64,000 nt of DNA from an uncultured Candidatus Saccharibacteria bacterium (GTDB taxonomy: Bacteria > Patescibacteriota > Minisyncoccia > UBA6257 > 2-01-FULL-56-20), in assembly GCA_964387675.1 (NCBI GenBank), contig CAYLWL010000002.1:22514-86513 (forward strand). The letters run 5' to 3'. Shown here piece after piece: positions 966-63,003 of the stretch (positions within the stretch are counted from its first letter, which is position 1; each line of letters begins with the position of its first letter). A model generated the notes under the pieces. It had not been told where the DNA came from. It was given only the letters and a program-made list of their open reading frames with translations, and did not search any database. A program made the translations under genes and the position numbers.

Positions 966-2210
966 ATGCGCGATATCAAATCTCTCAAGTCCCTTATGGA
1001 AAATCAGCTCGGACAGCCGTTCGAGAAGATTTCCGTGATCAATCTGGTGGATTTGCTTGTGGAGTACGCCTACAGCACGAAGGCCTCGGATATCCATATT
1101 CCACCCACGAGGGCTGGCTCGAGAATTCGCTTTCGCATCGACGGCCTGCTTCAGGATATTTTCGACAAGTCCAAAATTTCCAACGATCTGCATCAAGAAA
1201 TCATCGCGAGGATCAAAGTGCTGTCCGGTTTGAGGACGGACGAGCACTTTTTGCCGCAGGACGGAAGATTCAGGGTCAAAATCGAAGAGTTCGGCGATGT
1301 GGACATAAGAGTTTCCATCATGCCGACGTACTACGGCGAGAACGTGATCATGAGGGTCTTGGCGGAGAGCCAGAATTTCAAATTGGAGGACATGGGTTTT
1401 TCCCCAAACGACATTAAAAAAGTGGAAAGCGCGATCAGCAAATCCTTCGGGATGATTCTCGCGAACGGCCCCACGGGTTCGGGAAAAACCACCACGCTCT
1501 ACACGATTTTGCGGCGGCTCAACAGCCCGGAGGTCTCCATCATCACCATCGAGGACCCGATAGAGTATTCTCTTGACGGCACCACGCAGATTCAAATCAA
1601 CGAGCAGGTGGGGCTCACCTTCGCGAACGGTCTGCGATCCATTTTGCGCCAGGACCCGAACATCATCATGGTCGGCGAAATCCGCGACGAAGACACCGCG
1701 GCCATCGCCGTGAACGCTGCCCTTACGGGGCACTTGGTGCTCTCCACGCTCCACACGAACGACGCCGCCACCACATTCCCGCGGCTCCTTGATATGGGCG
1801 TGCCGCCGTTCCTCGTTGCTTCCACCGTGAACATCGCGACCGGCCAGCGGCTCGTGAGAACATTGTGCCAGGACTGCAAAACGAAGAGGGCATTGAAAGA
1901 CGAAGAAGTCAAAAGCTTATCGGAGCTTTTGCCGGAAATAGCGAAGATGGGCGAGAAAAACTTTTTCGCTCCGAATCCGAAAGGGTGCGACGCGTGCGGC
2001 CAGAGCGGATATCGGGGAAGGATCGGCATCCGTGAAGTGATCGAGGTGAACGAAGAAATCAGGCAGCTTGTGATGAATCGCGCCAACGCGACTCAGATCA
2101 AAGAAGCGGCGATTCGGAACGGGATGACGACGATGATAGAAGATGGTTTGCAAAAGGCGGCCAAAGGGCTGACTTCGATCGAAGAGATCATACGGATTAT
2201 ACATGAATAA
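966..2210 (+). CDS. pilB: type IV pilus assembly / type II secretion ATPase, PilB/GspE family (short form)
   Basis: Walker A GPTGSGKTTT, Asp box IIMVGEIRDEDTA, His box LVLSTLHTNDA, C-terminal Cys pairs CQDCK...CDACG. Overlaps pilC start by 8 nt. Confidence 0.85.
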   Translation: MRDIKSLKSLMENQLGQPFEKISVINLVDLLVEYAYSTKASDIHIPPTRAGSRIRFRIDGLLQDIFDKSKISNDLHQEIIARIKVLSGLRTDEHFLPQDGRFRVKIEEFGDVDIRVSIMPTYYGENVIMRVLAESQNFKLEDMGFSPNDIKKVESAISKSFGMILANGPTGSGKTTTLYTILRRLNSPEVSIITIEDPIEYSLDGTTQIQINEQVGLTFANGLRSILRQDPNIIMVGEIRDEDTAAIAVNAALTGHLVLSTLHTNDAATTFPRLLDMGVPPFLVASTVNIATGQRLVRTLCQDCKTKRALKDEEVKSLSELLPEIAKMGEKNFFAPNPKGCDACGQSGYRGRIGIREVIEVNEEIRQLVMNRANATQIKEAAIRNGMTTMIEDGLQKAAKGLTSIEEIIRIIHE

Positions 2211-3285
2211 GCTCAAGCGCTTTCTCATCAGCACGTTCGGGATCGGAGGAGTGCCGATCCAGGAAAAAATCAATTTTGCCCGCCACCTCTCGATCGTCAT
2301 CAAGGCCGGGCTTCCCATCCTCGAGGGCCTGCGTCTCATCAAACGACAGACCGCTTCGCGCGCCGTGGTTTCCGTTATTGATCAGGTGATTGTGGATGTG
2401 GGCAACGGGCAATTCTTGGCAACCAGCTTGTCGAGGTATCCCCATATTTTCGACGACTTTTTCATCAGCATCGTCCGGGTGGGCGAGACGAGCGGAACGC
2501 TGGCGCAGAATTTGGTGTATCTTGCCGATGAACTCAAAAAATCTCATGACTTAAGGAACAAGGTGCGCTCGGCGATGATTTACCCCGTTATCATTATGAT
2601 CGTCACGTCCGGCCTCGTTTCTTTTTTGGTGTTTTTCGCCTTTCCGAAAATTCTGCCCCTGTTCGCGAGTTTGCGGGTTGAATTGCCTGTCACGACCCGC
2701 GTCCTGATCGCTACTACGGCATTTTTCCTCGCGCACGGCGTCTCTGTCGTTGCGGGACTGGTCGCTTTCTTTGTGGCCCTTAGAATTCTACTGATACTTC
2801 GTCCCACGAAAATGATTTCCGACCGCCTACTCATCGCCACGCCCATCTTTTCCAAGATCATCATTGACGTGAACATGGCAAATTTCACGAGGGTGCTTTC
2901 GGTTCTACTGAAGGGCGGGATCAAGATCGTGGAAGCGGTGACCATCACCTCGCAAACGTTCAATAATCTTGTGTATCGCAGGGAGCTTGCCCGGGCCGCG
3001 GAAGGCATTCAAAAAGGGGATCAGTTGGCGAAGTATCTTGCCCATGATAAAAACATTTTCCCGATGTTGCTTTCGGGTCTCATCGAGATCGGAGAAAATA
3101 CGGGGAACTTGGAGGACAACCTGACATATTTGTCCGATTACTATCGCGAAGAGGCGGAACAGAGCATCAATACTTTAACCGCGCTTATCGAGCCCCTGCT
3201 TTTGCTCCTTATGGGAATGGTGGTGGGATTCGTCGCCATTTCAATCATTTCTCCCATCTATCAGATTACCCAAGGAGTGAGATGA
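2203..3285 (+). CDS. pilC: type IV pilus platform protein PilC/GspF family
   Basis: 360-aa polytopic membrane protein with two GspF-like halves (GLPILEGLRLI..., GGIKIVEAVTI...). Directly follows pilB. Confidence 0.8.
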   Translation: MNKLKRFLISTFGIGGVPIQEKINFARHLSIVIKAGLPILEGLRLIKRQTASRAVVSVIDQVIVDVGNGQFLATSLSRYPHIFDDFFISIVRVGETSGTLAQNLVYLADELKKSHDLRNKVRSAMIYPVIIMIVTSGLVSFLVFFAFPKILPLFASLRVELPVTTRVLIATTAFFLAHGVSVVAGLVAFFVALRILLILRPTKMISDRLLIATPIFSKIIIDVNMANFTRVLSVLLKGGIKIVEAVTITSQTFNNLVYRRELARAAEGIQKGDQLAKYLAHDKNIFPMLLSGLIEIGENTGNLEDNLTYLSDYYREEAEQSINTLTALIEPLLLLLMGMVVGFVAISIISPIYQITQGVR

Positions 3286-3743
3286 CGTTCGCTCGAAATA
3301 TCGAAATTTCGAAATATCGAGATGGTTTCACTTTGACGGAGGTTTTGATCGTTGTCGGGATCCTCGCGGTTGTTTTTGCCTTTGCGATCGGCGTCGGCAT
3401 CAATTTCTACGGCGGCCAAGCCGTTGTTTCGGAACGCGACACGCTCGTGAACGTGCTCCGGGCCGCGCGCGGCCGCGCCTTGAACAATTTCGACGAATCG
3501 AGCCACGGCGTTTTTATTGCCGCCGCGCAATACGTCCTTTTCGAGGGCAATTCGTACGCCAGCCGCAACCAGGATTTCGACTCCGTATTTCCGAGAGGGA
3601 AGGGGCTCACGATGAGCGGATTGTCGGAAGTCGTTTTCAACGCGCCGCAAGGCGACGCGAACGCTTCCGGCACCATAACCCTGTCGAACGACCTTGGCAA
3701 TGCTAAAATTAATATCAACAATGAAGGAAGAATTGATTGGTAA
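3282..3743 (+). CDS. prepilin-type N-terminal cleavage/methylation domain protein (pilin/pseudopilin)
   Basis: N-terminus MTFARNIEISKYRDG|FTLTEVLIVVGILAVVFAFAIG is a class III signal with G|FTLxE and a hydrophobic helix. Overlaps pilC stop by 4 nt. Confidence 0.8.
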   Translation: MTFARNIEISKYRDGFTLTEVLIVVGILAVVFAFAIGVGINFYGGQAVVSERDTLVNVLRAARGRALNNFDESSHGVFIAAAQYVLFEGNSYASRNQDFDSVFPRGKGLTMSGLSEVVFNAPQGDANASGTITLSNDLGNAKININNEGRIDW

Positions 3744-3744
3744 A

Positions 3745-3783
3745 TTATTAGAATCTAGAATCTAGAAAATAGAAAGTAGAATT
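3745..3783. repeat. TAGAA-family hairpin arm (left arm flanking four-helix-bundle gene copy 1)
   Basis: ttattagaatctagaatctagaaaatagaaagtagaatt. The inverted partner is at 4147-4188. Confidence 0.7.
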
Positions 3784-4128
3784 ATGAGTAATACAAAATC
3801 TTTTAAAGATTTAATTGTATGGCAGAAAGCGCGGAGTTTGGCGGTTGCGGTATATAAACTTTCTGAACAATTTCCTAACGTAGAGCTATATGGCCTAACA
3901 AGTCAAATGCGTCGCGCGGCCATTTCCATTTCTTCCAACATCGCCGAAAGTTACCACCGTTTTCATAGAAAAGAAAAACAGCAGTTTCTTTCTATCGCTT
4001 TTGGCTCCGGCTCGGAACTAGAAAGCCAAATAGAAATCGCCAAAGTTTTATTTCCAAAGCTGGATTATCGAGAAAGTGAAGAATTATTGTTGGAGGTTAT
4101 GAAAATACTAAATAATTTTCTACAATGA
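3784..4128 (+). CDS. four-helix-bundle protein (23S rRNA intervening-sequence protein / DGR Avd-like family), copy 1
   Basis: 114 aa. WQKARSLAVAVYKLSEQFPNVELYGLTSQMRRAAISISSNIAESYHRF matches the S23-ribosomal/IVS four-helix-bundle family. Flanked by inverted TAGAA repeats. Confidence 0.8.
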   Translation: MSNTKSFKDLIVWQKARSLAVAVYKLSEQFPNVELYGLTSQMRRAAISISSNIAESYHRFHRKEKQQFLSIAFGSGSELESQIEIAKVLFPKLDYRESEELLLEVMKILNNFLQ

Positions 4129-5558
4129 TCAAAATCGAAAAATTAAAAATAGTTCTTCTACTTTCTATTTTCTATTTTCTACCTTCTCGTAAGCGGGGGC
4201 AGTCCACGATTGAGATTTTGATCGCGGTGACGATTCTGACCGCGGTTTTGACGAGCGCCGCCGCGCTCATTTTCGGCAGCCAATCGCTCTCGGTTGATTC
4301 CGCGGAAAGTAATCAGGCATTGCGTCTCGCCGAACAGGGCTTGGAGGGCGTCAAAAATCAGGCCAGATACGACTTCCTCAACATCGTTTCGAGCACCGTG
4401 ACGCAGGGTGAGTTCACGAAAAACATCATTGTCTCGAATGTAGGCGCGAACACGAAGCAAGTGGTAAGCCGCGTTACGTGGAGCACCGATCCGCAGAGAA
4501 CCCAGCAAGTCGAACTCGTGACGCTTGTGACGGATTGGCGCGGCGTGCAGGACACCGGCGGAGACACGGGGAGCGGCGGCGGTGGCGGCGGCGCTTCTGG
4601 CGACTGGTGCAATCCCGCAACCCTCGGCACGATCGATTTGGGATCGGGTGAGTCGGCGACGGGCATCGATGTGATCGCAACAACGACCTATATGACGGCA
4701 GTCGCTTCCTCCCCGAGCAAGAAGGACTTTTTCATCGTTGATGTTTCCAATTCCAGCACTCCTTCCATTATCGGGTCCATAGACACCGGGCCGGGACTCA
4801 ATGCTCTGGACGTGACGGCAAACTACGCTTATGTCGCGAGCGACGACAGCTCCAAGCAATTCCAAGCCATCGACGTCAGCAACAAGACCAGCCCGGTTCT
4901 CGTTGCATCCACCACTCTTACGAGCAATTCCGCCGTTGGACGGAGTATTTTTTACCATAATCAAAAAGTATATATCGGCACGGACGACAATAGTGGAAAC
5001 GAATTCCAGATTATCGACGTGGCCACTCCCGCAACCCCCGTGATTTTGGGAAGAGCTTCTTTGGATGAAGATGTGAATTCCATTTACGTGAGCGGGAACA
5101 AGGCATATCTTGCAACATCCGATACGTCGAAAGACGTGCAGATTTTCGATGTGTCGACTTCATCCGCGCCCGCGCTTCTTGGCACGTATGACATTTCGGG
5201 TGCCGGAGAAACGAAATGGCTGTATGTGGTTGGCACGAAAATGTATGTGGGCAGAGAAACCGGAGGAGATGAACTTTATGTATTGGATATTACGAATGCC
5301 ACTTCGGTGTCGGTGTTGGGCCATAAGGCGATCGGCAAAACGGTGAACGCGATTACAGTGCGCGGCAATTACGCGTTCCTTGCCACCTCCGACCCGAACA
5401 ACGAGCTCAAGATATTCGACGTTTCCAATCTTTCAAATATCACTTCCTGCAGTAACTTCAACTTTCCCAACATCGCGACCGCCGTCGATTTCGACGCCAA
5501 TCTGGTGTACACCGCCGTGCGATCGAACGACGGCCTGCGCATCGTGACATCGCAATAA
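4125..5558 (+). CDS. prepilin-like N-terminus fused to an LVIVD-repeat beta-propeller domain protein
   Basis: N-terminal KRGQSTIEILIAVTILTAVLTSAAALIFG is a pilin-type G/x-T-x-E plus TM. A Gly-rich linker (GGDTGSGGGGGGASGD) is followed by at least six repeats of the pattern xxIxDVSNxSxPxxxG (FIVDVSNSSTPSIIGS, QAIDVSNKTSPVLVAS, QIIDVATPATPVILGR, QIFDVSTSSAPALLGT, YVLDITNATSVSVLGH, KIFDVSNLSNITSCS). These are typical of LVIVD repeats. True start codon uncertain. Confidence 0.65.
   Translation: MIKIEKLKIVLLLSIFYFLPSRKRGQSTIEILIAVTILTAVLTSAAALIFGSQSLSVDSAESNQALRLAEQGLEGVKNQARYDFLNIVSSTVTQGEFTKNIIVSNVGANTKQVVSRVTWSTDPQRTQQVELVTLVTDWRGVQDTGGDTGSGGGGGGASGDWCNPATLGTIDLGSGESATGIDVIATTTYMTAVASSPSKKDFFIVDVSNSSTPSIIGSIDTGPGLNALDVTANYAYVASDDSSKQFQAIDVSNKTSPVLVASTTLTSNSAVGRSIFYHNQKVYIGTDDNSGNEFQIIDVATPATPVILGRASLDEDVNSIYVSGNKAYLATSDTSKDVQIFDVSTSSAPALLGTYDISGAGETKWLYVVGTKMYVGRETGGDELYVLDITNATSVSVLGHKAIGKTVNAITVRGNYAFLATSDPNNELKIFDVSNLSNITSCSNFNFPNIATAVDFDANLVYTAVRSNDGLRIVTSQ
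4147..4188. repeat. TAGAA-family hairpin arm (right arm); also encodes N-terminus of the following pilin-like ORF
   Basis: tagttcttctactttctattttctattttctaccttctcg is the reverse-complement partner of 3745-3783. It translates in frame as VLLLSIFYFLPSR preceding KRG|QSTIE. Confidence 0.7.
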
Positions 5559-5560
5559 AA

Positions 5561-5600
5561 TTAGAATTTAGTAGCTAGTATCTAGAAACTAGAATGCGAG
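5561..5600. repeat. TAGAA-family hairpin arm
   Basis: ttagaatttagtagctagtatctagaaactagaatgcgag. Partner at 5635-5668. Confidence 0.65.
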
Positions 5601-5624
5601 AAATAACCAACGCAAACGCAATTT

Positions 5625-6155
5625 ATGAATAAAATACTAGATTCTAGATTCCAGATTCTAGATTCTCGCAGAGGGTTTACCTTGATGGAGACCTTGATTT
5701 ACATCGCTCTTTTTTCCGTCATTACGAGCTATGTCCTTGGCGTGTTCTATCAACTCCTCGGCAGCCGCAACCAAAATCGCGACAGGACGGAAGTTGACGC
5801 GGAAGCGAACTTTCTCATGCAGAAACTGCGGTGGGCAATGAGCGGCGTCCAAACCGTCAACCAGCCGGCGACAGGCGCCACTTCGACGACGCTATCGGTC
5901 ACAAAGTACAATTTCGCGCAGAACCCGATCGTATTCGACCTTGATTCCAGTACCCTCCGAATGGCAAAGGGTGGGGGAGCGGCGGTAATTTTAAACAATA
6001 GCCGCGTGGGAGTGGGCCAGCTGACATTCGAGCGCCTGGCTCCGGTGAGTAACGCTCCGGAAGGAGTTACCATAACATTGTCGGTATCGTCCCTTGATGT
6101 TGAGCGGCCGGTCGTCGCTTCCACCACTATCGTGGACACCATTTATTTAAGGTAA
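5625..6155 (+). CDS. prepilin-type N-terminal cleavage/methylation domain protein (pseudopilin)
   Basis: MNKILDSRFQILDSRRG|FTLMETLIYIALFSVITSYVLG is a canonical class III signal peptide. Confidence 0.8.
   Translation: MNKILDSRFQILDSRRGFTLMETLIYIALFSVITSYVLGVFYQLLGSRNQNRDRTEVDAEANFLMQKLRWAMSGVQTVNQPATGATSTTLSVTKYNFAQNPIVFDLDSSTLRMAKGGGAAVILNNSRVGVGQLTFERLAPVSNAPEGVTITLSVSSLDVERPVVASTTIVDTIYLR
5635..5668. repeat. TAGAA-family hairpin arm that encodes the pilin leader peptide
   Basis: tactagattctagattccagattctagattctcg translates as ILDSRFQILDSR immediately before RG|FTLMETLI. Confidence 0.65.
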
Positions 6156-6207: not shown

Positions 6208-6648
6208 ATGAGAGAAAAGTTCTATCATATCGGCAACCTACTAAAAGCTATAAGCTATAAGCTAAAAGCCCGGGTTGGCTACATCGGCATCGTGTCGGCG
6301 CTTATCATATCGGCCGTTGTGGTTCTGATTATGGTCGCGGTGGGGCAGATTTCGTTCTTGAACCGCATCAACATTTCCGACACCCACTTAAAAAAGAAAA
6401 GCCGGGCGCTCGCGGAGGGGTGCGTCGACACAGCGCTCTTGAAGCTCGCGTCGAACGCTTCCTACGCCGGCAACGAAACCATCACTGTTGCGAGCGATAC
6501 ATGCAAAATCGTTTCCGTGGTTTCGTCGAGTACGGGAAAGATCATTTCTGCCCAGGGCAAGTTCCTCGGCGCGGTGACGGATGTCAAGGCGACCGTTGAC
6601 ACCAACACCTTCTCGATCGTGGGCTGGGAAGAGGTGAGGAGTTTTTGA
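6208..6648 (+). CDS. hypothetical membrane protein in pilus operon (possible minor pilin/PilX-like)
   Basis: 146 aa with one N-terminal TM helix (IGIVSALIISAVVVLIMVAVG). No recognisable motif. Confidence 0.4.
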   Translation: MREKFYHIGNLLKAISYKLKARVGYIGIVSALIISAVVVLIMVAVGQISFLNRINISDTHLKKKSRALAEGCVDTALLKLASNASYAGNETITVASDTCKIVSVVSSSTGKIISAQGKFLGAVTDVKATVDTNTFSIVGWEEVRSF

Positions 6649-6691
6649 TTAGAAAGTAGAATTTAGAAAATAGAAAGTAGAATCTGGAAAA
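6649..6691. repeat. TAGAA-family hairpin arm
   Basis: ttagaaagtagaatttagaaaatagaaagtagaatctggaaaa. Partner at 6710-6747. Confidence 0.65.
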
Positions 6692-6693
6692 CT

Positions 6694-7191
6694 ATGAAAA
6701 ATTTAAAAACAACTTCTATTTTCTATTTTCTAGATTCTAGATTCTCGAATAAGGGTTTCACTTTGATAGAGGTCGTCATATCGGTGGCAATCATTACGCT
6801 CCTTACGGTTGCTGCCATTGTTATTCTCGATCCCGCTCGGCAGTTTGCCAAATCGAGAAACACACAGCGCTGGTCGGATGTGAATGTGATTTTGAATGCG
6901 GTTGGGCAAAACACCGTTGACAACCGCGGAACTTTTTCGTGCAGTTCCGGCGGGATTCCCACGACTACGACGAGGATGGCGTCCAGCAGTCCGAACTACA
7001 ATATCGCGCCGTGCCTTGTAGCGACCTATTTAAGCGCCTTGCCGTTCGATCCGGCAACGAGCGGCGCGAAGTGGACGAGCGTAACCGATTACGACACCGC
7101 TTATAACATCCTGCGAAACGCCACAACCGGCCGCGTGACGATTTCCGCTCCGGCGGCCGAACTTGGGGAGAGCGTTACGGTCACGAGGTAG
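6694..7191 (+). CDS. prepilin-type N-terminal cleavage/methylation domain protein (pilin)
   Basis: MKNLKTTSIFYFLDSRFSNKG|FTLIEVVISVAIITLLTVAAIVIL. Confidence 0.8.
   Translation: MKNLKTTSIFYFLDSRFSNKGFTLIEVVISVAIITLLTVAAIVILDPARQFAKSRNTQRWSDVNVILNAVGQNTVDNRGTFSCSSGGIPTTTTRMASSSPNYNIAPCLVATYLSALPFDPATSGAKWTSVTDYDTAYNILRNATTGRVTISAPAAELGESVTVTR
6710..6747. repeat. TAGAA-family hairpin arm encoding pilin leader
   Basis: aacttctattttctattttctagattctagattctcg translates as TSIFYFLDSRFS before NKG|FTLIEV. Confidence 0.65.
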
Positions 7192-7411: not shown

Positions 7412-9328
7412 TTAGACCGAGGCGTATTTGTCGCTCGGTGAGACCTCTATCGCGTCCCACTTATCTTTGAGCGCTGCCACCTTGCCGGGGTTTGCCAAAG
7501 TCACCGAGAGAAGGATTTTCGTAAGGTTGCTGTCTGTTCGCGTAAACTTTGAACTAAAATCATTTATTTCCTCGCTCAGGAGATGAGCAAGTTCGTGGAG
7601 ATAGGTTTTCGCTGCTTCTAAAAACGGCCCGGCAAGCAAACTTTGATTGATGAAAATATCGCTTCCGCCGATCGCCGTAAATCCGTGGAGTCCTATTTCT
7701 CCTTCTAGGCCCTTCAGTTTCAGAACTTTTCTGGCGGATACTTTCGGGGCGACTTCCTGAAGGCGGAGGATAAACTCCTCGGCTTCAAATACGCCCATGG
7801 CCTGTTCTAAAAGTTTTGGATCGATCGTTCGGCCGTCGAGGAGATGCCATATTTCTTCGAGCACTTTTATCCGCTCTTGTTCCGGAGCGTTTAATTCCAC
7901 GTTTTCTGCCGTATCGACAAGCCCCACTATTTTTTCCCGCGCGAGCGGCATACCAAGCTGGTTCAGTTCCGGTATACATATGGTAAACCCCGCACTCTTC
8001 AGAACCTCTTCATAGCCATTCAAGCGGCTCGAGTAAGCACCTGCCGCATCACGAGCAACGCACATTCCCCAGAATTTTTCAGGAATCCTTGGGGACGAGG
8101 AAGTTGCTCGCATTCCAAATAACAGCTTCTTTACGATTTTTTTGACGAGCAGTAAGGCCGGTTTTTTCGCTTCCTCATAAGGCACATCTTCCCAGTAATC
8201 TTTGAGTTTTTCTAATACATTCCTGGCTTGTTCGTCGGTCATTTCTTTAACAAGCGGCGCCAGCACGTTTTCATCAAATTCCCCGGCTTCGCAGTAACTT
8301 CGATCCCTTCGCTTTTGCAAGGCCTTTCTGTTTGTCCAGATAGTCATTCCTTCAACTTGGTGCGACCAGCCATCGTGCTTTCCGTATTCATATCTTTGTC
8401 CCGAGATATAAAGATTGCCCTTTCCTCCTTTCGGCAAAAGCTCAAATCCGCCGAAGTCAGATTCAAACGTGGGGTTTTGGAAATCTTCGTTCGTGGAGCT
8501 GTAAAAGAAATCTTTCATTAAAGAGAAGTCCTCATCAAGTTTCAAAATTTCCAACGCTTCATCCGGGAGATCATCTTCATACCAATGCCAAAAGGAAGAC
8601 GGAATCGCGAATTTTAAGTAGTTGCCGGGGAATGGTTCTCGCGTAAATTTCGCGCGGACGTGAAGTCCCTGAACTTTATCTGGATAATCTTCTTCTGGCA
8701 GAGAATCCAGATAATAAATCATTTTCCAGTGGCCTGAGCCGAGCTCCACGTTATCGGTTAACCTGTTTTGCAAAAGCAGGAAGGCGGCTATTTTTACCCC
8801 CTCGCCGAATTCACCGGCGGCTTCGGGGTCATCAAACTTTGTTGTTCCTCCATGATGGATCAAATAGCGGTGATCGTATTCTGCCGGAGAGGTGATTACA
8901 AACTCGCGATACTCCCTGCCGTCAATTTGCGCGGTTCTTTCTTCGGACTTAACACCGTCGAGTGTCGGTCTCCCGGCATAAGCCGCCATGCCGTCATAAA
9001 AGTTTTGAAAAATATCCCGGAGCAGTTTTGTGTTTGACCACCCGATCATCTGGGTCTCAAGAGGACCGATGTATCTGCCACCCTCCAGTGCCTTGAGAAG
9101 TGCCGCGATAACTTCGGGATTGGATTTTTTCCGGGTTACAATTCCATACTCTTTTGCCAGTTGGTATGCGGCGTCTATGTCTTCTTTGGAGTAATTGCTC
9201 GGCCACTTCGGGTCGTCCAAAAACTTTCTTACCCGCTCAATTTCTTCGAGCGCCTCGCTTTCGGTTAATGGCTCCTGGTATGGCCCCTCGTCAGGTATGG
9301 TGAAAGATTCTTTCCGTGGTTTAGGCAT
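7412..9328 (-). CDS. large hypothetical protein (638 aa) with C-terminal HExxH zinc-peptidase-like motif
   Basis: No Walker or other family motifs recognised. C-terminal TYLHELAHLLSEE is an HExxH motif as in SprT/ImmA-IrrE-type metallopeptidases. Acidic, Trp-rich central region. Confidence 0.6.
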   Translation of the reverse strand: MPKPRKESFTIPDEGPYQEPLTESEALEEIERVRKFLDDPKWPSNYSKEDIDAAYQLAKEYGIVTRKKSNPEVIAALLKALEGGRYIGPLETQMIGWSNTKLLRDIFQNFYDGMAAYAGRPTLDGVKSEERTAQIDGREYREFVITSPAEYDHRYLIHHGGTTKFDDPEAAGEFGEGVKIAAFLLLQNRLTDNVELGSGHWKMIYYLDSLPEEDYPDKVQGLHVRAKFTREPFPGNYLKFAIPSSFWHWYEDDLPDEALEILKLDEDFSLMKDFFYSSTNEDFQNPTFESDFGGFELLPKGGKGNLYISGQRYEYGKHDGWSHQVEGMTIWTNRKALQKRRDRSYCEAGEFDENVLAPLVKEMTDEQARNVLEKLKDYWEDVPYEEAKKPALLLVKKIVKKLLFGMRATSSSPRIPEKFWGMCVARDAAGAYSSRLNGYEEVLKSAGFTICIPELNQLGMPLAREKIVGLVDTAENVELNAPEQERIKVLEEIWHLLDGRTIDPKLLEQAMGVFEAEEFILRLQEVAPKVSARKVLKLKGLEGEIGLHGFTAIGGSDIFINQSLLAGPFLEAAKTYLHELAHLLSEEINDFSSKFTRTDSNLTKILLSVTLANPGKVAALKDKWDAIEVSPSDKYASV

Positions 9329-13040: not shown

Positions 13041-13623
13041 ACTTGCGGAACTCGAAGCCCTCTTATTTATCCACGGTGAGCCGTTGGCTTTGAAGAAAAT
13101 CAGGTCTCTTTTGGATGTCAAACCCGAGGAATTGGATTCGCTCATCGCCGAATTGAAAAAGTGCCTCGAAACCGAGAATAGGGGACTCGCGCTCGTCGAG
13201 GATGGCGAGAAAATACAGCTGGTAACCAAGCCGAAGTTCGGCAAAATCCTCGAGAGTTTTATAAAAGAGGAATTATCGGAAGACCTGACGCCGGCGAGTT
13301 TGGAGGCCATGGCGCTCATCACGTATTTCGGGCCTATTTCAAGAAGCCGGCTTGATTACCTTCGCGGCGTCAACTCCACGTTTATTTTAAGAAGTTTGCT
13401 TCTGCGGGGGCTCGTGGAGCGTTTTCCCGACCCCGAGCGGCAAAACGCTTTTTTGTATCGCCCAACTTTTGATTTGTTGAGGCACTTGGGGCTTGAAAAA
13501 AAAGAGGATCTGCCGGACTTCGAAAAGTTCCAGTCGCTCATCAAGGCATTTGAGGCCCAGCAGGAGGCGCCGCCCGCAGCAGATTCTGCCATCGGCATAG
13601 TTTCCGACGAACAGAACAAATGA
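13018..13623 (+). CDS. scpB: segregation and condensation protein B
   Basis: ELEALLFIHGEPLALKKIRSLL and the tandem winged-helix pattern of ScpB. Confidence 0.8.
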   Translation: MSNFSIEKLAELEALLFIHGEPLALKKIRSLLDVKPEELDSLIAELKKCLETENRGLALVEDGEKIQLVTKPKFGKILESFIKEELSEDLTPASLEAMALITYFGPISRSRLDYLRGVNSTFILRSLLLRGLVERFPDPERQNAFLYRPTFDLLRHLGLEKKEDLPDFEKFQSLIKAFEAQQEAPPAADSAIGIVSDEQNK

Positions 13624-14144
13624 CCTTAAAATCTTATATCTCTCCCGGGGTGAAAATAAAGAGAAGCAAAATTCAAGGCCTTGGGTTGGCCGCTGTAAAA
13701 AGTTTTAGAAAAGGAGACATCGTTGGCATAAAGAATGGCCATATTTTCGACAAGAAACAGTTTAAAAAACTCGGTGGATTTCAGAGTGATCTTGGCCGCG
13801 CGTTTTTACAAATAGCCGACAACTTTTTTATTGGACCCTCGCAACCTAAAGAATTGAAAAGAAGTAATATGTTTGTAAATCATTCTTGTGATCCCAACAT
13901 TGGGTTTCTGGGAAATATTGTTTCGGTTGCTATGCGTGACATAAGAACGGGGGAAGAACTAACCAACGATTACGCTACTTGGGTGAACTATCCATCTTAC
14001 GAATTAAGATGTAATTGTGGGAGTGGGACTTGTCGCAAAGTTATTACAGGTAGAGATTGGCGTCAGCCAAAACTTCAGAAAAAATACAAAGGATTTTTTT
14101 CGGCTTATATCCAAAAAAAGATTCACACGACACATGACACTTGA
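13620..14144 (+). CDS. SET-domain protein-lysine methyltransferase
   Basis: SET signature NHSCDPN and ELTNDY, plus Cys-rich post-SET CNCGSGTCRK. The 4-nt overlap with the scpB stop suggests translational coupling. Confidence 0.8.
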   Translation: MTLKSYISPGVKIKRSKIQGLGLAAVKSFRKGDIVGIKNGHIFDKKQFKKLGGFQSDLGRAFLQIADNFFIGPSQPKELKRSNMFVNHSCDPNIGFLGNIVSVAMRDIRTGEELTNDYATWVNYPSYELRCNCGSGTCRKVITGRDWRQPKLQKKYKGFFSAYIQKKIHTTHDT

Positions 14145-28667: not shown

Positions 28668-31040
28668 ATGTTTATTTACTTCCTTATGGGTTTTATCGTA
28701 AGCGCCGTTTTGGGCGTGAGTATTTATTTTTTGGCACGGCACATCGTTCGAGGCAAGCTTTTCGCGTCTTTGGGAATGACGCTCTTGCTCATCAAGATTC
28801 CCCGCGAAACCTCCGCCCAAAACGCGCCGGAAAAAGATTTCAAAACGGAGATTAATCGATTCGAGCAGCTTTTGGGCGGGCTCGCTTCTTTGAAGAAGCC
28901 GGTTGTGTTTGAGGCGGCGGTGCCCCACGTCGGCGAGGAAATCCATTTTTATCTCGCGGTGCCCAAAAAAATGATGGAGGTAGCCATAAAACAAGTCCAG
29001 GGTTTGTGGAACGGAGCGAGCGTCGACATCGCCCCTGATGACTTCAATATCTTTAACGCCAATGGCGCGACCTCGGCCGCCTATATTATGCAGAAAGAAA
29101 ACTATGCCTTGCCGATTCGGAGTTACTTGGAACTTGGGCTCGATTCGTTCGCGTCCGTTATCGGCGGCTTTTCGAAGGTTGCCGAAATTGGCGAAGGCGC
29201 GGCGCTGCAAATTGTTCTGCGGCCCGGCCCGAAAGACGCCAAGAAAAAAATCCACGGTTTCATCCAATCCCTCAAAAAGGGCGAGCCGCTCAAAAAAGTG
29301 TTCGGCCACGAATTTCCGGTGAGTTTCTCGGAGATCGGCCAGGCCCTGAATCCCAAGAAAGAGGAAGAGAAGAAAGAGAAGATCGTCGACGAAGAGGCGG
29401 TGAAGGCGCTCGAAATGAAAATAACAAAGCCCTTATTTGAGGTGAACGTGAGGGTGGTATGCTCGGCGGGTTCCAAATTCCAGTCGGATGATATTTTGGA
29501 CGGTATCACCGCGGGTTTCAATCAATTCGGCAGTCCGAGGAGGAATGAGTTCAGGGTGGTAAAACCGAGAAACCCAAACACGGTGGCTCGCCAGTTCATA
29601 TTCCGGAATTTTGAGTCCTCGCAAAGAATGCTACTCTCTGCCGAGGAAATCGCGAGCTTCTATCATTTTCCGACGGCGCTCACCGAAACGCCTCGAATCA
29701 AATGGCTCAAGTCCAAAGAAGCCCCGCCGCCCGCAAACTTGCCCGCGAGCGGCATCCAGATAGGAGAGAGTTTATTCCGCGGCCAGACGAAGCCCGTATA
29801 TATAACACACGAGGATAGGCGGCGGCATGTGTATACCATCGGTCAGACGGGTACGGGAAAATCCACGCTTTTGGGCAATATGATTATCGAAGACATCAAG
29901 CAGGGGAGGGGCGTGGCAATCATCGATCCTCACGGCGATCTGGTGGGCAACGCCTTGGGTTTTATTCCGAAAGACCGGATTGACGACTTGATTTATTTCG
30001 ACCCCGCGGATCTTGAAAGGCCGCTTGGACTCAACATGCTGGATTATAATTTTGATCGTCCCGAAGAGAAGACATTCATCGTGAACGAGATGCAGAGTAT
30101 CTTTAACAAACTGTTCCCACCGGAGACGATGGGCCCGATGTTCGAGCAGTATATGAGGAACGCGCTTTTGCTTTTAATGGAAGACATGCCCAACGAACCG
30201 GCGACGCTCATTGAGGTCCCCAGGGTTTTTACGGACGCAGAGTACCGCGCGCGCAAACTCGAGCGGATTCAGAATCCCGTGGTCATCGATTTTTGGGAAA
30301 AAGAAGCGGTGAAGGCGGGAGGCGAAGCGTCTCTTGCCAATATGACGCCGTATATCACCTCTAAATTCAACAACTTCATTTCGAACGACTATATGCGGCC
30401 GATTATCGGCCAGGCGAAGTCGGCGTTCAATTTCAGAAAGGTGATGGATGAAGGAAAGATTTTACTCATCAATCTTTCCAAGGGAAGGATTGGAGACATC
30501 AACGCCGGACTTCTCGGCATGGTGTTCACCGGAAAGATTTTGATGGCCGCTTTGTCGAGAGTGGACATAGCCGAGGTTGAGAGGCGGCGTGACTTTAATC
30601 TCTACATAGACGAATTCCAAAACTTCACGACGGATTCCATCGCCACGATTCTCTCTGAGGCAAGAAAATACAAATTGAATCTGACGATGGCGCACCAGTT
30701 CATTGCCCAGCTCACGGAAAAAATCCGCGACGCGGTTTTCGGCAACGTCGGTTCGCAGATTGTGTTTCGCGTCGGCGTGCAGGATGCGGAGTTTTTGGTG
30801 AAGCAGTTCGAGCCGGTGTTTAGTCAGAACGATTTATTGAATATCGACAACTTGAACGCCTACGCGAAGATTTTAATCAACGGCGAAACGTCAAAACCCT
30901 TTAACATTAAAATTCTTACCACTTCCTGGGGAGCGGGCGACAAAGACATGGCCCAAAAGCTAAGGGAATACTCAAGGATGAAATACGGCATGGATCGGCA
31001 GGGGATCGAGGCGGAGATTTATAGGAGGTTGCGAGAGTAA
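28668..31040 (+). CDS. membrane-anchored P-loop ATPase of the VirD4/TraD/TraG type IV coupling-protein-like family
   Basis: N-terminal TM (FIYFLMGFIVSAVLGVSIYFL). HVYTIGQTGTGKSTLLGNMI (Walker A), then AIIDPHGDLVGNALGFIPKDRIDDLIYFDPAD, which parallels the TrwB/VirD4 block (vIvDPnGD...ilnP.d), and LYIDEFQNF (Walker B). Confidence 0.55.
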   Translation: MFIYFLMGFIVSAVLGVSIYFLARHIVRGKLFASLGMTLLLIKIPRETSAQNAPEKDFKTEINRFEQLLGGLASLKKPVVFEAAVPHVGEEIHFYLAVPKKMMEVAIKQVQGLWNGASVDIAPDDFNIFNANGATSAAYIMQKENYALPIRSYLELGLDSFASVIGGFSKVAEIGEGAALQIVLRPGPKDAKKKIHGFIQSLKKGEPLKKVFGHEFPVSFSEIGQALNPKKEEEKKEKIVDEEAVKALEMKITKPLFEVNVRVVCSAGSKFQSDDILDGITAGFNQFGSPRRNEFRVVKPRNPNTVARQFIFRNFESSQRMLLSAEEIASFYHFPTALTETPRIKWLKSKEAPPPANLPASGIQIGESLFRGQTKPVYITHEDRRRHVYTIGQTGTGKSTLLGNMIIEDIKQGRGVAIIDPHGDLVGNALGFIPKDRIDDLIYFDPADLERPLGLNMLDYNFDRPEEKTFIVNEMQSIFNKLFPPETMGPMFEQYMRNALLLLMEDMPNEPATLIEVPRVFTDAEYRARKLERIQNPVVIDFWEKEAVKAGGEASLANMTPYITSKFNNFISNDYMRPIIGQAKSAFNFRKVMDEGKILLINLSKGRIGDINAGLLGMVFTGKILMAALSRVDIAEVERRRDFNLYIDEFQNFTTDSIATILSEARKYKLNLTMAHQFIAQLTEKIRDAVFGNVGSQIVFRVGVQDAEFLVKQFEPVFSQNDLLNIDNLNAYAKILINGETSKPFNIKILTTSWGAGDKDMAQKLREYSRMKYGMDRQGIEAEIYRRLRE

Positions 31041-56772: not shown

Positions 56773-57732
56773 ATGAGGGGATTGATCCTGCTTGTCGCCT
56801 TGTTTCTATCCGCGTTCTTTCCAGGCCCGATCCTGGCGCAGCAGCCCTTCAAATCTAGTGTCGATTTGGTGGTTTTAAACGTAACCGTGATAGACGGCAG
56901 CGCGAGAGGAGACAAGCCGCGTTTTGTGCGGGGACTCGCCGAGAAAGATTTTGTTGTCTACGAAAACGGCATCGGACAAGACATTGCGTTTTTCACGCAA
57001 AGCGACGTGCCGATCGAAATCGCGCTTATCATAGATACGAGCGCGAGCATGACAGATAAAATGCAGATGGCGAAAGAGGCCGCCATCGGCTTCATTCGCA
57101 ATTTACGACCGCAGGACTCCGCCGAAATTTTGGGATGTGACGCGAGAATCAGAATATTCCAAACATTTACGAACGACAAAGACAAACTCGAAAAGTCCAT
57201 CGAGCTGATTTCTGCCGGAGGATCGACTTCTTTATATAACGCCATCTACGTCGCGGTGAATGAGTTCAAGAAAAATCGGGGGTCTTCGAACGATATTCGC
57301 CGCCAGGCCATTGTTGTTTTGTCCGACGGAGAAGACACCTCGAGTCTCATTACGTTTGATGAGTCCCTCCAAACGGCGCAAAAAGCGAATATCGCGATAT
57401 ACGCGATTTCGTTGAAATCTGGGCCCATTACTACCACCAGCCGCCGTTATTTCAATCAATCGGATTTTGTGATGACCCGATTCGCGAGCGAAACCGGCGG
57501 ACGCTCGATTTCCGCGATCCGCCCGGAAGACCTGCGTGATATTTACAGCAACATCCTCGACGAGATCATGAGCCAGTACACGATCGGTTACGAATCCAGC
57601 AACAAAATTGCCGACGGTAAATGGCGCGCGGTCATTGTCCAGGCCCTGAAGCCGAACGTAACCGTTCGCACGAGAAAAGGGTACGAAGGGCCGACACCGT
57701 CCGGTGTTCGCGACAAAGAGAAAAGTAAATAA
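56773..57732 (+). CDS. secreted von Willebrand factor type A domain protein (VWFA-related, TIGR03436-like N-terminus)
   Basis: Signal peptide. VDLVVLNVTVIDGSARGDKPRFVRGLAEKDFVVYENGIGQDIAFF. MIDAS DTSASM...S...T, VVLSDGEDTSS. Confidence 0.7.
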   Translation: MRGLILLVALFLSAFFPGPILAQQPFKSSVDLVVLNVTVIDGSARGDKPRFVRGLAEKDFVVYENGIGQDIAFFTQSDVPIEIALIIDTSASMTDKMQMAKEAAIGFIRNLRPQDSAEILGCDARIRIFQTFTNDKDKLEKSIELISAGGSTSLYNAIYVAVNEFKKNRGSSNDIRRQAIVVLSDGEDTSSLITFDESLQTAQKANIAIYAISLKSGPITTTSRRYFNQSDFVMTRFASETGGRSISAIRPEDLRDIYSNILDEIMSQYTIGYESSNKIADGKWRAVIVQALKPNVTVRTRKGYEGPTPSGVRDKEKSK

Positions 57733-62945: not shown

Positions 62946-63003
62946 TATCTAGAAACTAGAATCTAGAATTTCGGTCATTTTAACTACTAAATTCTAGATT
63001 CTG
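62924..63003. repeat. TAGAA/CTAGTAT-family repeat cluster; first units encode MurF C-terminus
   Basis: cagtatctagtatctagtatctagtatctagaaactagaatctagaatttcgg...aaattctagattctg. Translates to ...KQYLVSSI*. Confidence 0.7.

What the first reader, a model, noticed from the sequence alone, without database searches (positions are those of the whole stretch)
4125..5558. Pilin-like N-terminus fused to an LVIVD-repeat beta-propeller
The 477-aa ORF has a prepilin-type G|QSTIE plus hydrophobic helix, a Gly-rich linker, and at least six repeats matching the LVIVD pattern (x-I/V-x-DVSN-x-S-x-P-x-x-x-G), which forms beta-propellers. A propeller displayed on a pilus-like stalk would be an adhesin or host-attachment tip, which is relevant if this organism is an episymbiont.
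Basis: partly seen in the sequence, partly recalled or inferred. Interest (0 to 1): 0.6.

Follow-up and report, generated by a model that had tools for sequence, protein, structure and literature searches.

The report
Pilus-tip pilin carrying a beta-propeller
This gene encodes a minor subunit of a type IV pilus with a seven-bladed propeller domain attached, probably shown at the pilus tip of an ultrasmall (Patescibacteria) bacterium as a binding device; the design is real and widespread but belongs to a known class.

Summary
ORF 4125-5558 (477 aa) has four parts: a class III (prepilin) signal, a GspI-like pilin module, a Gly-rich linker and a seven-bladed LVIVD beta-propeller.

- **Signal peptide:** PF07963 does not hit this protein because +1 is Gln, not Phe. 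Gly(-1) is kept in 54 of 58 homologues and Glu(+5) in 56 of 58.
- **Context:** the gene holds the I slot of a conserved cassette (ATPase, platform, H, I-LVIVD, J, K without Glu5, G). The cassette recurs in Patescibacteria MAGs; ATPase and platform lie upstream in 60 of 60 loci that could be judged.
- **Most likely role:** a tip-displayed binding module. This is inferred, not shown.
- **Precedents:** pilin plus LVIVD is already listed among modular pilins (30 of 1,219 proteins). In Saccharibacteria TM7x, the propeller-bearing pilin PilX2 is needed for efficient host binding.
- **Verdict:** a new member of a known kind, of moderate interest.
- **Side finding:** a 23S-IVS-like element with heptamer-repeat stems and a four-helix-bundle ORF sits in the pilin's leader region. 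Empty stems of the same repeats enclose other pilin start codons.

The parts
966..2210 (+). Assembly ATPase (PilB/GspE/ComGA type), 414 aa
   Evidence: PF00437 T2SSE at E = 2.1e-122. TIGR02533 GspE 2.2e-148, below its equivalog cutoff. Found upstream of the LVIVD pilin in 60 of 60 loci with enough flank.
2203..3285 (+). Platform protein (PilC/GspF/ComGB type), 360 aa
   Evidence: PF00482 T2SSF at E = 1.1e-55, two stretches. Found upstream in 60 of 60 loci.
3282..3743 (+). Minor pilin in the H slot, 153 aa, RDG|FTLTE
   Evidence: PF07963 at 2.1e-06. Weak GspH (TIGR01708, 7e-4) and ComGD hits. A homologue lies upstream of the LVIVD pilin in 70 of 80 loci.
3745..4192 (+). IVS-like inserted element. 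The 37-nt inverted-repeat arms (3745-3781 and 4156-4192) are built of tandem heptamers TAGAAnn. They enclose a four-helix-bundle gene (3784-4128) and the pilin's ATG.
   Evidence: Inverted repeat with 84% complementarity. The heptamer motif occurs 13 times against 0.47 expected. The ORF hits PF05635 23S_rRNA_IVP at 1.4e-32. The gene is absent from 80 of 80 related loci. Its anatomy matches the Coxiella 23S IVS.
4125..4199 (+). Leader peptide of the LVIVD pilin (residues 1-25), ending KRG. Codons 11-23 are the right arm of the inverted repeat.
   Evidence: Leader length varies from 3 to more than 30 residues among homologues.
4200..4553 (+). Pilin module (residues 26-143): alpha-1 helix (residues 28-86) packed on a 4-stranded sheet (residues 90-136). 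I-class (GspI/PilV/ComGE-like).
4554..4616 (+). Gly-rich flexible linker (residues 144-164), with a conserved GDW motif at its end
   Evidence: Block-mean pLDDT is 69-72. G159 and W161 are at least 90% conserved.
4617..5558 (+). Seven-bladed LVIVD beta-propeller (residues 165-477) plus stop codon
5563..5666 (+). Heptamer-repeat hairpin enclosing the start codon (5625) of the J-slot pilin
   Evidence: 33-nt arms, 79% complementary, 38-nt loop. RNA fold z = -2.8 to -3.8.
5625..6155 (+). Minor pilin in the J slot, 176 aa, RRG|FTLME
   Evidence: PF07963 at 3.3e-05. Weak ComGE, ComGF and GspJ hits. The family profile matches only the generic pilin helix in the PDB.
6208..6648 (+). K-slot subunit, 146 aa, ARVG|YIGIV. 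It lacks Glu5, so it is the presumed cap of the tip complex.
   Evidence: The N-terminus G|YIA(I/L)(T/V)SA, without Glu5, is conserved across loci. Two Cys are invariant. GspK hit is weak, E = 0.037.
6651..6745 (+). Heptamer-repeat hairpin enclosing the start codon (6694) of the G-slot pilin
   Evidence: 32-nt arms, 88% complementary, 31-nt loop. RNA MFE is -35.1 kcal/mol, z = -7.4, and 0 of 200 shuffles fold as well.
6694..7191 (+). G-slot pilin, 165 aa, NKG|FTLIE. Candidate major pilin.
   Evidence: PF07963 at 2.1e-07. TIGR01710 GspG at 1e-05, below cutoff. A G-like gene lies downstream in 65 of 72 loci.

Best explanation
The ORF encodes a modular minor type IV pilin. Shown: a class III signal (cleavage expected at G25|Q26), then a small GspI/PilV/ComGE-class pilin module. 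A flexible Gly-rich linker of about 20 residues follows, then an acidic seven-bladed LVIVD beta-propeller. The gene sits in the I slot of a compact, conserved filament cassette: ATPase, platform, H, I-LVIVD, J, K without Glu5, G. Inferred: a prepilin peptidase encoded elsewhere removes the leader, and the hydrophobic helix holds the protein in the membrane. With J and the Glu5-less K subunit it forms the complex that primes filament assembly, so it ends up at the pilus tip. The propeller therefore rides at the tip on its linker and acts as the ligand-binding head. Its most likely target is a surface glycan or protein of a host cell or substrate. It would be a covalently fused counterpart of the PilY1-on-HIJK arrangement of diderm T4aP, and of PilX2 in Saccharibacteria. 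The ligand is unknown.
For: Architecture: LVIVD at 85.9 bits. The full model has pLDDT 90.4 and pTM 0.80, with helix 28-86, sheet 90-136, linker and 7 blades of 4 strands. Gly(-1) is in 54 of 58 and Glu(+5) in 56 of 58 homologues.

Conserved cassette: 7 of 7 loci inspected by gene table. ATPase and platform are upstream in 60 of 60 loci.

Fixed pairing of module and propeller: all 103 of the best 150 pilin-module relatives that are at least 440 aa long carry the propeller.

Framework from the literature: HIJK form a tip complex capped by a Glu5-less subunit, I nucleates assembly, and effectors sit at the tip (PMC10191384; PMC9934059). Modular pilins present grafted adhesive modules (PMC8179133).

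Direct precedent in the same phylum: TM7x PilX2, a minor pilin with a heptabladed propeller and a non-canonical signal peptide. Its deletion lowers host binding from 10.6% to 4.6% while filaments persist (PMC11623550).

Propeller surface: indels concentrate in the A-B and C-D loops (23 + 49 extra alignment columns) against 5 in the D-A loops. This fits one adaptable face.
Against: No experiment addresses this protein. Cleavage, incorporation into a filament, tip location and binding are all inferred. PF07963/TIGR02532 do not recognise the N-terminus. No prepilin peptidase was found in the 64-kb window. The J and K labels rest on gene order, sub-threshold HMM hits and the missing Glu5; family profiles found no GspJ or GspK in the PDB. 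The propeller's structural neighbours are generic WD40-type propellers at 10-16% identity, so they give no clue to the ligand, and PilY1 is not in the top 50-60. The window holds no retraction ATPase, so the filament could be a short Com/T2SS-like pseudopilus and not a long adhesive pilus.
Confidence: 0.65

Rival explanations
1. Assembly or priming role only. The propeller acts as a bulky plug or cap that stabilises the priming complex or blocks retraction, as proposed for the PilY1 C-terminal propeller. It would have no specific external ligand.
For: The gene is an obligatory-looking part of the cassette in every locus, and the pilin module is essentially always found with the propeller. In T4aP, PilY1 with the minor pilins primes assembly. 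The D-A loops and blade cores are well conserved.
Against: TM7x still makes filaments without PilX2 but binds hosts less well. A long flexible linker and an indel-rich face fit a reaching, binding head better than a rigid plug. This role does not exclude binding.
Confidence: 0.15
2. DNA receptor of a competence-type pilus. The cassette resembles ComGA, ComGB and five pilins, and Patescibacteria are thought to scavenge nucleic acids. The propeller would capture extracellular DNA.
Against: The propeller is strongly acidic throughout the family: median pI 4.37, median net charge -15, range -30 to -1. That is unfavourable for DNA binding. YncE scores no better than dozens of unrelated WD40 propellers.
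Confidence: 0.08
3. A tip-mounted enzyme such as a hydrolase or lyase that attacks a host envelope. Some modular pilins carry peptidase modules.
Against: These hits have 10-12% identity and rank no better than non-enzymatic WD40s. Across 58 homologues the near-invariant propeller residues are mostly Gly, Tyr, Phe, Pro, Ala and Val. E293 is the only conserved acidic residue and there is no conserved His or Cys cluster. That does not look like a catalytic or metal site.
Confidence: 0.05
4. Not a pilin at all: a cell-surface LVIVD protein held by an uncleaved N-terminal transmembrane helix that happens to lie in a pilus operon.
For: PF07963 fails. The 25-residue leader has an unusual hydrophobic stretch. 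+1 is Gln. LVIVD and choice-of-anchor domains occur with many other anchors.
Against: Gly(-1) and Glu(+5) are conserved at 93-97%, and distant members carry canonical G|FSTLE. The fold is GspI-like. The gene has a fixed position between the H and J pilins in every locus. The hydrophobic part of the leader is explained by a DNA repeat and is absent in most orthologues.
Confidence: 0.03

Closest known systems
Modular type IV pilins (Streptococcus sanguinis PilB-vWA and PilC-lectin; survey of Raynaud et al. 2021, PMC8179133)
   Same: An N-terminal pilin module joined by a short linker to a domain not specific to pilus biology, predicted at the tip. The survey already lists IPR012902 + IPR013211 (LVIVD) architectures, 30 of 1,219 proteins, including an 860-aa Falkowbacteria protein (IPR013211 = LVIVD confirmed).
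   Different: The paper describes the LVIVD motif as 'of unknown function' and does not analyse it. The Gln(+1) clade found here escapes the IPR012902/PF07963 signature, so that survey would have missed it. In S. sanguinis the modules sit on PilB and PilC while the I-like PilA is plain. Here the module is grafted on the I-like subunit itself.
PilX2 of Nanosynbacter lyticus TM7x (Saccharibacteria), PMC11623550
   Same: A Patescibacteria minor pilin with a C-terminal seven-bladed beta-propeller and a non-canonical signal peptide. It was shown genetically to contribute to host binding but not to filament formation.
   Different: The PilX2 propeller is described as RCC1-repeat type. Here it is LVIVD, and no RCC1 family appears in the Pfam output. 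The lineage differs (Parcubacteria/Paceibacteria-type MAGs), and PilX2 was named for the X slot, not the I slot.
PilY1/PilC tip adhesin of diderm type IVa pili
   Same: A seven-bladed propeller presented at the pilus tip together with the HIJK minor pilins. It is involved in adhesion and priming.
   Different: PilY1 is a large non-pilin protein that docks non-covalently on the minor pilins. Here the propeller is covalently fused to a pilin. There is no PilY1-family Pfam hit, and PilY1 is not among the top structural neighbours.
GspI / EpsI / XcpV (T2SS), PilV/PilI (T4aP), ComGE (Com pilus): the I-class core minor pilin
   Different: The sequence does not reach any family cutoff (PilV 16.7 bits against 52.2; ComGE 14.8 against 49). 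+1 is Gln. A 330-residue linker plus propeller is appended, whereas classical I subunits are the smallest pilins.
LVIVD-repeat surface proteins (PF08309; Adindla et al. 2004, PMC2447325) and the 'choice-of-anchor B' domain (TIGR04312)
   Same: Tandem repeats of about 42-44 residues, found in archaeal and bacterial cell-surface proteins. The domain is attached to a variety of anchors.
   Different: Here the anchor is an N-terminal pilin. The TIGR04312 score of 47.6 is below its cutoff of 100. No LVIVD protein has a tested function in the searched literature; only 7 papers mention the repeat.

Membership tests
Type IV pilin (type 4 filament subunit) | Class III signal peptide: basic leader ending in Gly(-1), Glu at +5 of the mature protein, then about 20 hydrophobic residues | tested here: met
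   KRG|QSTIE + ILIAVTILTAVLTSAAALIF. Gly(-1) in 54 of 58 and Glu(+5) in 56 of 58 homologues. +1 is Gln (40 of 58), not Phe.
Type IV pilin (type 4 filament subunit) | Match to the N-terminal methylation motif HMM (PF07963 / TIGR02532 / IPR012902) | tested here: not met
   No hit at E <= 1 for this protein. 6 of 27 family members hit PF07963, as do a few precomputed homologues.
Type IV pilin (type 4 filament subunit) | Lollipop fold: a long N-terminal alpha-helix packed on an antiparallel beta-sheet | tested here: met
Type IV pilin (type 4 filament subunit) | Encoded with an assembly ATPase and a platform protein | tested here: met
   T2SSE and T2SSF lie immediately upstream. The same holds in 60 of 60 related loci.
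Type IV pilin (type 4 filament subunit) | Cleavage (and N-methylation) by a prepilin peptidase, and incorporation into a filament | not testable with these tools
   No A24-type peptidase motif in the window. Biochemistry is required.
I-class core minor pilin (GspI / PilV / ComGE) | GspI-type fold of the globular part | tested here: met
I-class core minor pilin (GspI / PilV / ComGE) | Family HMM above the curated cutoff | tested here: not met
   TIGR02523 PilV 16.7 bits (cutoff 52.2). NF041013 ComGE 14.8 bits (cutoff 49). No TIGR01707 GspI hit.
I-class core minor pilin (GspI / PilV / ComGE) | Second gene of an H-I-J-K set whose K member lacks Glu5 | tested here: met
   The order of weak hits is GspH/ComGD, then target, then ComGF/GspJ, then GspK, then GspG. 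The K slot lacks Glu5 across loci. The J and K identities themselves are only weakly supported.
I-class core minor pilin (GspI / PilV / ComGE) | Physical complex with the J and K subunits at the filament tip | not testable with these tools
   No multimer prediction or experiment was available.
LVIVD repeat family (PF08309 / IPR013211) | HMM score above the gathering threshold | tested here: met
   85.9 bits against 20.2, E = 1.1e-24, four stretches.
LVIVD repeat family (PF08309 / IPR013211) | Tandem units of about 42 residues forming four-stranded blades of a propeller | tested here: met
Modular pilins (sensu Raynaud et al. 2021) | Pilin module, then linker, then a domain not specific to pilus biology | tested here: met
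   The IPR012902-IPR013211 architecture is listed in their Dataset S1.
PilY1/PilC family | PilY1-type C-terminal propeller (IPR008707) on a non-pilin protein | tested here: not met
   No PilY1-family Pfam hit. PilY1 is not in the top 50-60 structural matches. This protein is itself a pilin.
Choice-of-anchor B (TIGR04312) | HMM above the curated cutoff | tested here: not met
   47.6 bits against a cutoff of 100. Related, but not a member.
Diversity-generating retroelement target/Avd (considered because of the adjacent four-helix-bundle gene) | Reverse transcriptase and template/variable repeat nearby; Avd HMM | tested here: not met
   No credible RT motif in the window. bAvd scores 18.1 bits (cutoff 40) and DivGenRetAVD 16.2 bits (cutoff 80), while PF05635 scores 112.5 bits.

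The most novel reading that the evidence does not exclude
A 23S-rRNA-IVS-type selfish element has colonised the 5' end of the tip-adhesin gene. It has heptamer-repeat stems and an S23p four-helix-bundle ORF. 'Empty' stems of the same repeats enclose the ribosome-binding sites and start codons of other pilin genes in this and related genomes. These stems could act as an RNase III-dependent or inversion-dependent switch that turns individual pilus subunits, including the propeller-bearing tip pilin, on and off. The disposable leader peptide would serve as the coding space that tolerates the element. Separately, the conserved Gln(+1) could mark a different N-terminal maturation (for example pyroglutamate, as I recall for archaeal EppA-type pilins) for the tip subunit only.
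Probability: 0.15. Interest if true: 0.65.

Novelty: new member of a known kind. Interest (0 to 1): 0.4.

Why it matters
Most Patescibacteria outside the Saccharibacteria have no known host, and how they recognise one is unknown. A conserved, tip-displayed propeller encoded in one fixed pilus cassette across more than 100 species-level genomes is a concrete candidate for the recognition device. The soluble domain (residues 160-477) could be expressed and used as bait on glycan arrays or environmental cell preparations. The finding also shows that signature-based surveys of modular pilins under-count them, because the Gln(+1) clade is invisible to PF07963. In addition, a module can be grafted on the I subunit that nucleates the tip complex. 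The concept itself, a modular pilin or propeller at a pilus tip, is established, so this extends known biology and does not overturn it.

Tried and rejected
- **afdb50 fold search:** the library was not available.
- **Genome scan with the 58-sequence alignment:** It was repeated with 16 closer sequences.
- **Sequence profiles of the pilin module and of the J and K families against the PDB:** only generic pilin-helix or chance matches. The I-class call therefore rests on fold and gene order.
- **Prepilin peptidase in the window:** no G-x-G-D-x-K motif in six frames, and none among 39 ORFs scanned with Pfam.
- **DGR hypothesis for the adjacent Avd-like four-helix-bundle gene:** rejected. There is no reverse transcriptase motif, and the protein is a PF05635 member, not Avd.
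- **P0001, the 100% identical protein called 34 residues shorter:** it does not indicate a different start or an inverted upstream segment. Its contig begins with a Nextera adapter and breaks at the heptamer repeat.
- **Heptamer hairpins as a general feature of the family:** rejected. At the LVIVD-pilin start they occur only in the window, L006 and L014 among about 74 loci.
- **Rfam:** no family covers the hairpins.
- **DNA-binding reading:** disfavoured by the acidic propeller.
- **Enzyme reading:** disfavoured by the lack of conserved polar clusters.
Full report
**1. The observation.** The window holds an ATG-initiated ORF at 4125-5558 (+) of 477 residues. Its start overlaps the stop of the preceding gene (ATGA). 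The N-terminus reads MIKIEKLKIVLLLSIFYFLPSRKRG|QSTIEILIAVTILTAVLTSAAALIF. That gives a basic end to the leader, Gly at -1, Glu at +5 and a hydrophobic stretch of about 21 residues. A Gly-rich segment (GGDTGSGGGGGGASGDW) follows at about residues 144-161. Pfam scores the rest as LVIVD repeats (PF08309, E = 1.1e-24, 85.9 bits against a gathering score of 20.2). The sequence divides into seven repeats of about 44 residues, in which the motif 'phi-x-I-phi-D-V-S-N-P-x-x-P' forms the outer strand of one blade and the loop into the next. The one proposed check that failed is PF07963: no hit for this protein even at E <= 1. The same model hits the neighbouring genes at 3282, 5625 and 6694.

**2. The pilin N-terminus is not a chance resemblance.** A search of 5.8 billion proteins returned 160 relatives. 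About 100 are full-length proteins of 450-490 aa with the same layout. In an alignment of 58 of them, Gly(-1) is present in 54 and Glu(+5) in 56. Position +1 is Gln in 40 and the canonical Phe in 14, and the Phe forms are the more distant members. Among 73 loci from species-representative genomes, Gln(+1) is found in 64. The three flanking pilin genes of the same operon have the standard G|FTL-x-E. Gln at +1 probably explains why the HMM fails; only 6 of 27 family members reach it. Leader length varies from 3 to more than 30 residues.

**3. Structure.** AlphaFold2 with the 58-sequence alignment gave mean pLDDT 90.4 and pTM 0.80. The model has a helix at 28-86, four strands at 90-136, a linker with block-mean pLDDT 69-72, and 28 strands from 165 to 475, i.e. 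seven four-stranded blades.

**4. Context.** Upstream lie a T2SSE ATPase (966-2210) and a T2SSF platform protein (2203-3285). Five genes with pilin-type N-termini follow.
- 3282-3743 has weak GspH and ComGD hits.
- The target has weak PilV and ComGE hits.
- 5625-6155 has weak ComGE, ComGF and GspJ hits.
- 6208-6648 has a weak GspK hit, and its mature N-terminus YIGIV lacks Glu5.
- 6694-7191 has a GspG hit at 1e-05.

None reaches a family cutoff. The order H-I-J-K-G is what the established correspondence PilH/I/J/K = PulH/I/J/K = ComGD/E/F/G predicts (Table 1 of PMC10191384). The K-slot protein lacks Glu5 throughout the family (G|YIA(I/L)(T/V)SA), which is the hallmark of the capping subunit. 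Family profiles of the J and K proteins did not retrieve GspJ or GspK from the PDB by sequence, so those two labels remain inferences.

**5. Conservation of the cassette.**
- Seven loci inspected through their gene tables show the same order. They span 29-73% identity of the target.
- A scan of 185,579 species-representative genomes with two short peptide patterns found 101 relatives. The best 80 are all from MAGs that are named as Patescibacteria lineages or labelled only generically. The named lineages are Lipton-, Brenner-, Jorgensen-, Wolfe-, Colwell-, Falkow- and Uhrbacteria, and Paceibacterota. Some third-party assemblies carry 'Saccharibacteria' or 'Gammaproteobacteria' labels that look unreliable.
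- ATPase and platform genes are upstream in 60 of 60 loci with enough flank. A G-like pilin is downstream in 65 of 72.
- A profile of the pilin module alone finds 1,725 cluster representatives at E <= 1e-10 among 1.84 billion. Of the best 150, all 103 that are at least 440 aa long also carry the propeller. Most shorter ones end in the linker or first blades, i.e. are truncated calls. Pilin module and propeller therefore form a fixed pair.

**6. Mechanism.** Shown: the domain architecture, the GspI-like fold, the operon and its conservation. Inferred from established type 4 filament biology: the leader is removed by a prepilin peptidase, which is not in this window. The I subunit pairs with J and K in the membrane to nucleate the filament. 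Because filaments grow from tip to base, this complex stays at the tip. The propeller, on a flexible linker of about 20 residues, would then be exposed at the tip.
- Its most probable job is binding. The precedents are the S. sanguinis modular pilins PilB and PilC, PilY1 on HIJK, and above all PilX2 of the cultivated patescibacterium TM7x. PilX2 is a minor pilin with a heptabladed propeller and a non-canonical signal peptide. Its deletion lowers host binding from 10.6% to 4.6% without abolishing filaments.
- The propeller is acidic in every homologue (median pI 4.37, median net charge -15). This argues against DNA capture.
- Conserved residues are mostly structural, with no conserved His or Cys cluster. 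This argues against an enzyme.
- Indels concentrate in the A-B and C-D loops (23 + 49 extra alignment columns) against 5 in the motif-bearing D-A loops. That is compatible with one adaptable binding face, but it is weak evidence.

**7. Comparison with what is known.** The class 'modular pilin' was defined by Raynaud et al. (PMC8179133). Their InterPro survey already contains IPR012902 + IPR013211 architectures, 30 of 1,219 proteins by my count of Dataset S1. It mentions an 860-aa Falkowbacteria protein with 12 copies of this 'motif of unknown function'. IPR013211 is the LVIVD repeat. Only seven papers in the library mention the repeat, and none gives it a tested function. The architecture is therefore catalogued but uncharacterised. 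What this analysis adds:
- The pilin part is the I-class core minor pilin.
- The gene has a fixed place in a conserved seven-gene cassette.
- The dominant clade has Gln at +1 and so escapes the signature used for such surveys.
- The family is large and, as far as seen, restricted to Patescibacteria.

It is not a PilY1 family member, not a choice-of-anchor B member (47.6 bits against 100) and not a DGR target.

**8. Side finding: the odd leader.** The hydrophobic part of the leader (LLLSIFYFL) is encoded by a DNA repeat.
- The 12-mer TTCTAYTTTCTA occurs 13 times in the window against 0.47 expected.
- Arms of tandem heptamers (TAGAAnn / nnTTCTA) form inverted repeats. One is at 3745-3781 / 4156-4192 (37 nt, 84%) and encloses the whole PF05635 four-helix-bundle gene (3784-4128) plus the pilin's ATG. 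Others are at 5563-5595 / 5634-5666 and 6651-6682 / 6714-6745, with the start codons of the J and G pilin genes in loops of 38 and 31 nt.
- The last one folds at -35.1 kcal/mol, z = -7.4.
- The K gene start lies in a hairpin of different heptamers.
- Orthologous loci L006 and L014 have the same TAGAAnn hairpin around the LVIVD-pilin start without any inserted gene.
- The four-helix-bundle gene is absent from 80 of 80 related loci.
- The 448-nt unit matches the anatomy of the Coxiella 23S rRNA intervening sequence. That element is 428-444 nt, has a 28-bp terminal stem cut by RNase III, carries an S23p four-helix-bundle ORF in the loop and has heptameric repeats upstream of the ORF (PMC4990558). 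Here the unit sits in a messenger RNA.
- Rfam has no family for these hairpins.

Whether they are cleaved, inverted or merely tolerated in the disposable leader is untested.

**9. Verdict.** The feature is a new, well-populated member of a known kind (modular minor pilins, pilus-tip propellers). Interest is moderate at 0.4: a specialist would not be very surprised. It does offer a concrete handle on host recognition in Parcubacteria-type Patescibacteria. The IVS-like element in the pilin leader is the least expected item.

Noticed in passing
window 3745-4192: A 448-nt unit with the anatomy of a 23S rRNA intervening sequence. It has 37-nt inverted-repeat arms made of tandem heptamers (TAGAAnn) and a PF05635 four-helix-bundle (S23p-type) ORF at 3784-4128 in the loop. 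It is inserted between two pilin genes, so its right arm encodes part of the LVIVD-pilin leader and the pilin ATG lies inside the loop. The gene is absent from 80 of 80 related loci.
   Followed up: partly
window 5563-5666, 6651-6745 and around 6208; L006 around 3392; L014 around 4000: 'Empty' hairpins built of the same (or, at 6208, different) heptamer repeats enclose the ribosome-binding site and start codon of pilin genes. The one at 6694 folds at -35.1 kcal/mol (z = -7.4). The right arms lie in the cleaved leader-peptide coding region, which explains leaders such as SIFYFLDSRF. No Rfam family matches. The function (RNase III site, inverton, translation control) is unknown.
   Followed up: partly
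window 4200-4202 (codon 26); homologous loci L008-L087: The LVIVD pilin has Gln at +1 of the mature protein in 64 of 73 loci, whereas the H, J and G pilins of the same operon have Phe. This makes the protein invisible to PF07963. It may point to a different N-terminal modification.
   Followed up: partly
window 7412-9328 (-): A 638-aa ORF with no Pfam or NCBIfam family lies between the pilus cassette and dnaX. It is also present on the same-organism contig L088. It is absent at this position in L001, L002, L005 and L007, where dnaX follows the cassette directly.
   Followed up: no
window 6208-6648 and homologues (alignment A6): The K-slot subunit has two invariant cysteines (C72 and C99 of the window protein) and an invariant C-terminal W-E-E motif region. 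This suggests a conserved disulfide in the cap subunit.
   Followed up: no
window 62950-62968: A further array of three TAGAAnn heptamers lies just downstream of ORF 61647-62945 and upstream of tRNA-Glu (63045). It is far from the pilus operon.
   Followed up: no
window 28668-31040 (+): A 790-aa protein has VirD4/TraG-type coupling-protein domains (T4SS-DNA_transf, TraG-D_C, DUF87) in an otherwise housekeeping region of a small-genome bacterium.
   Followed up: no
window 13620-14144 (+) and 56773-57732 (+): A SET-domain protein (174 aa) lies directly after scpB, and a von Willebrand factor A protein (319 aa) lies further on. Both are unusual small-genome cargo, and the vWA protein could be another surface or adhesion factor.
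   Followed up: no
L088 1-19 (Logan contig SRR12113385_1389408): The contig starts with the Nextera mosaic-end adapter AGATGTGTATAAGAGACAG and breaks exactly at the heptamer repeat. This produced a truncated 443-aa gene call (P0001) for a protein that is otherwise 100% identical to the target.
   Followed up: yes
L008, L014-L016, L021, L062, L063 and others (record titles): Many third-party MAG records that carry this Parcubacteria-type cassette are titled 'uncultured Candidatus Saccharibacteria' or 'uncultured Gammaproteobacteria'. These labels look like placeholder or wrong taxonomy and should not be used to infer distribution.
   Followed up: no
L001 7312-8004; L005 8379-9050: Other genomes carry different extra genes without Pfam hits inside the cassette. 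L001 has a 230-aa gene between H and the LVIVD pilin. L005 has a 223-aa gene before the last pilin. The junctions between pilin genes therefore seem to be insertion-prone.
   Followed up: no
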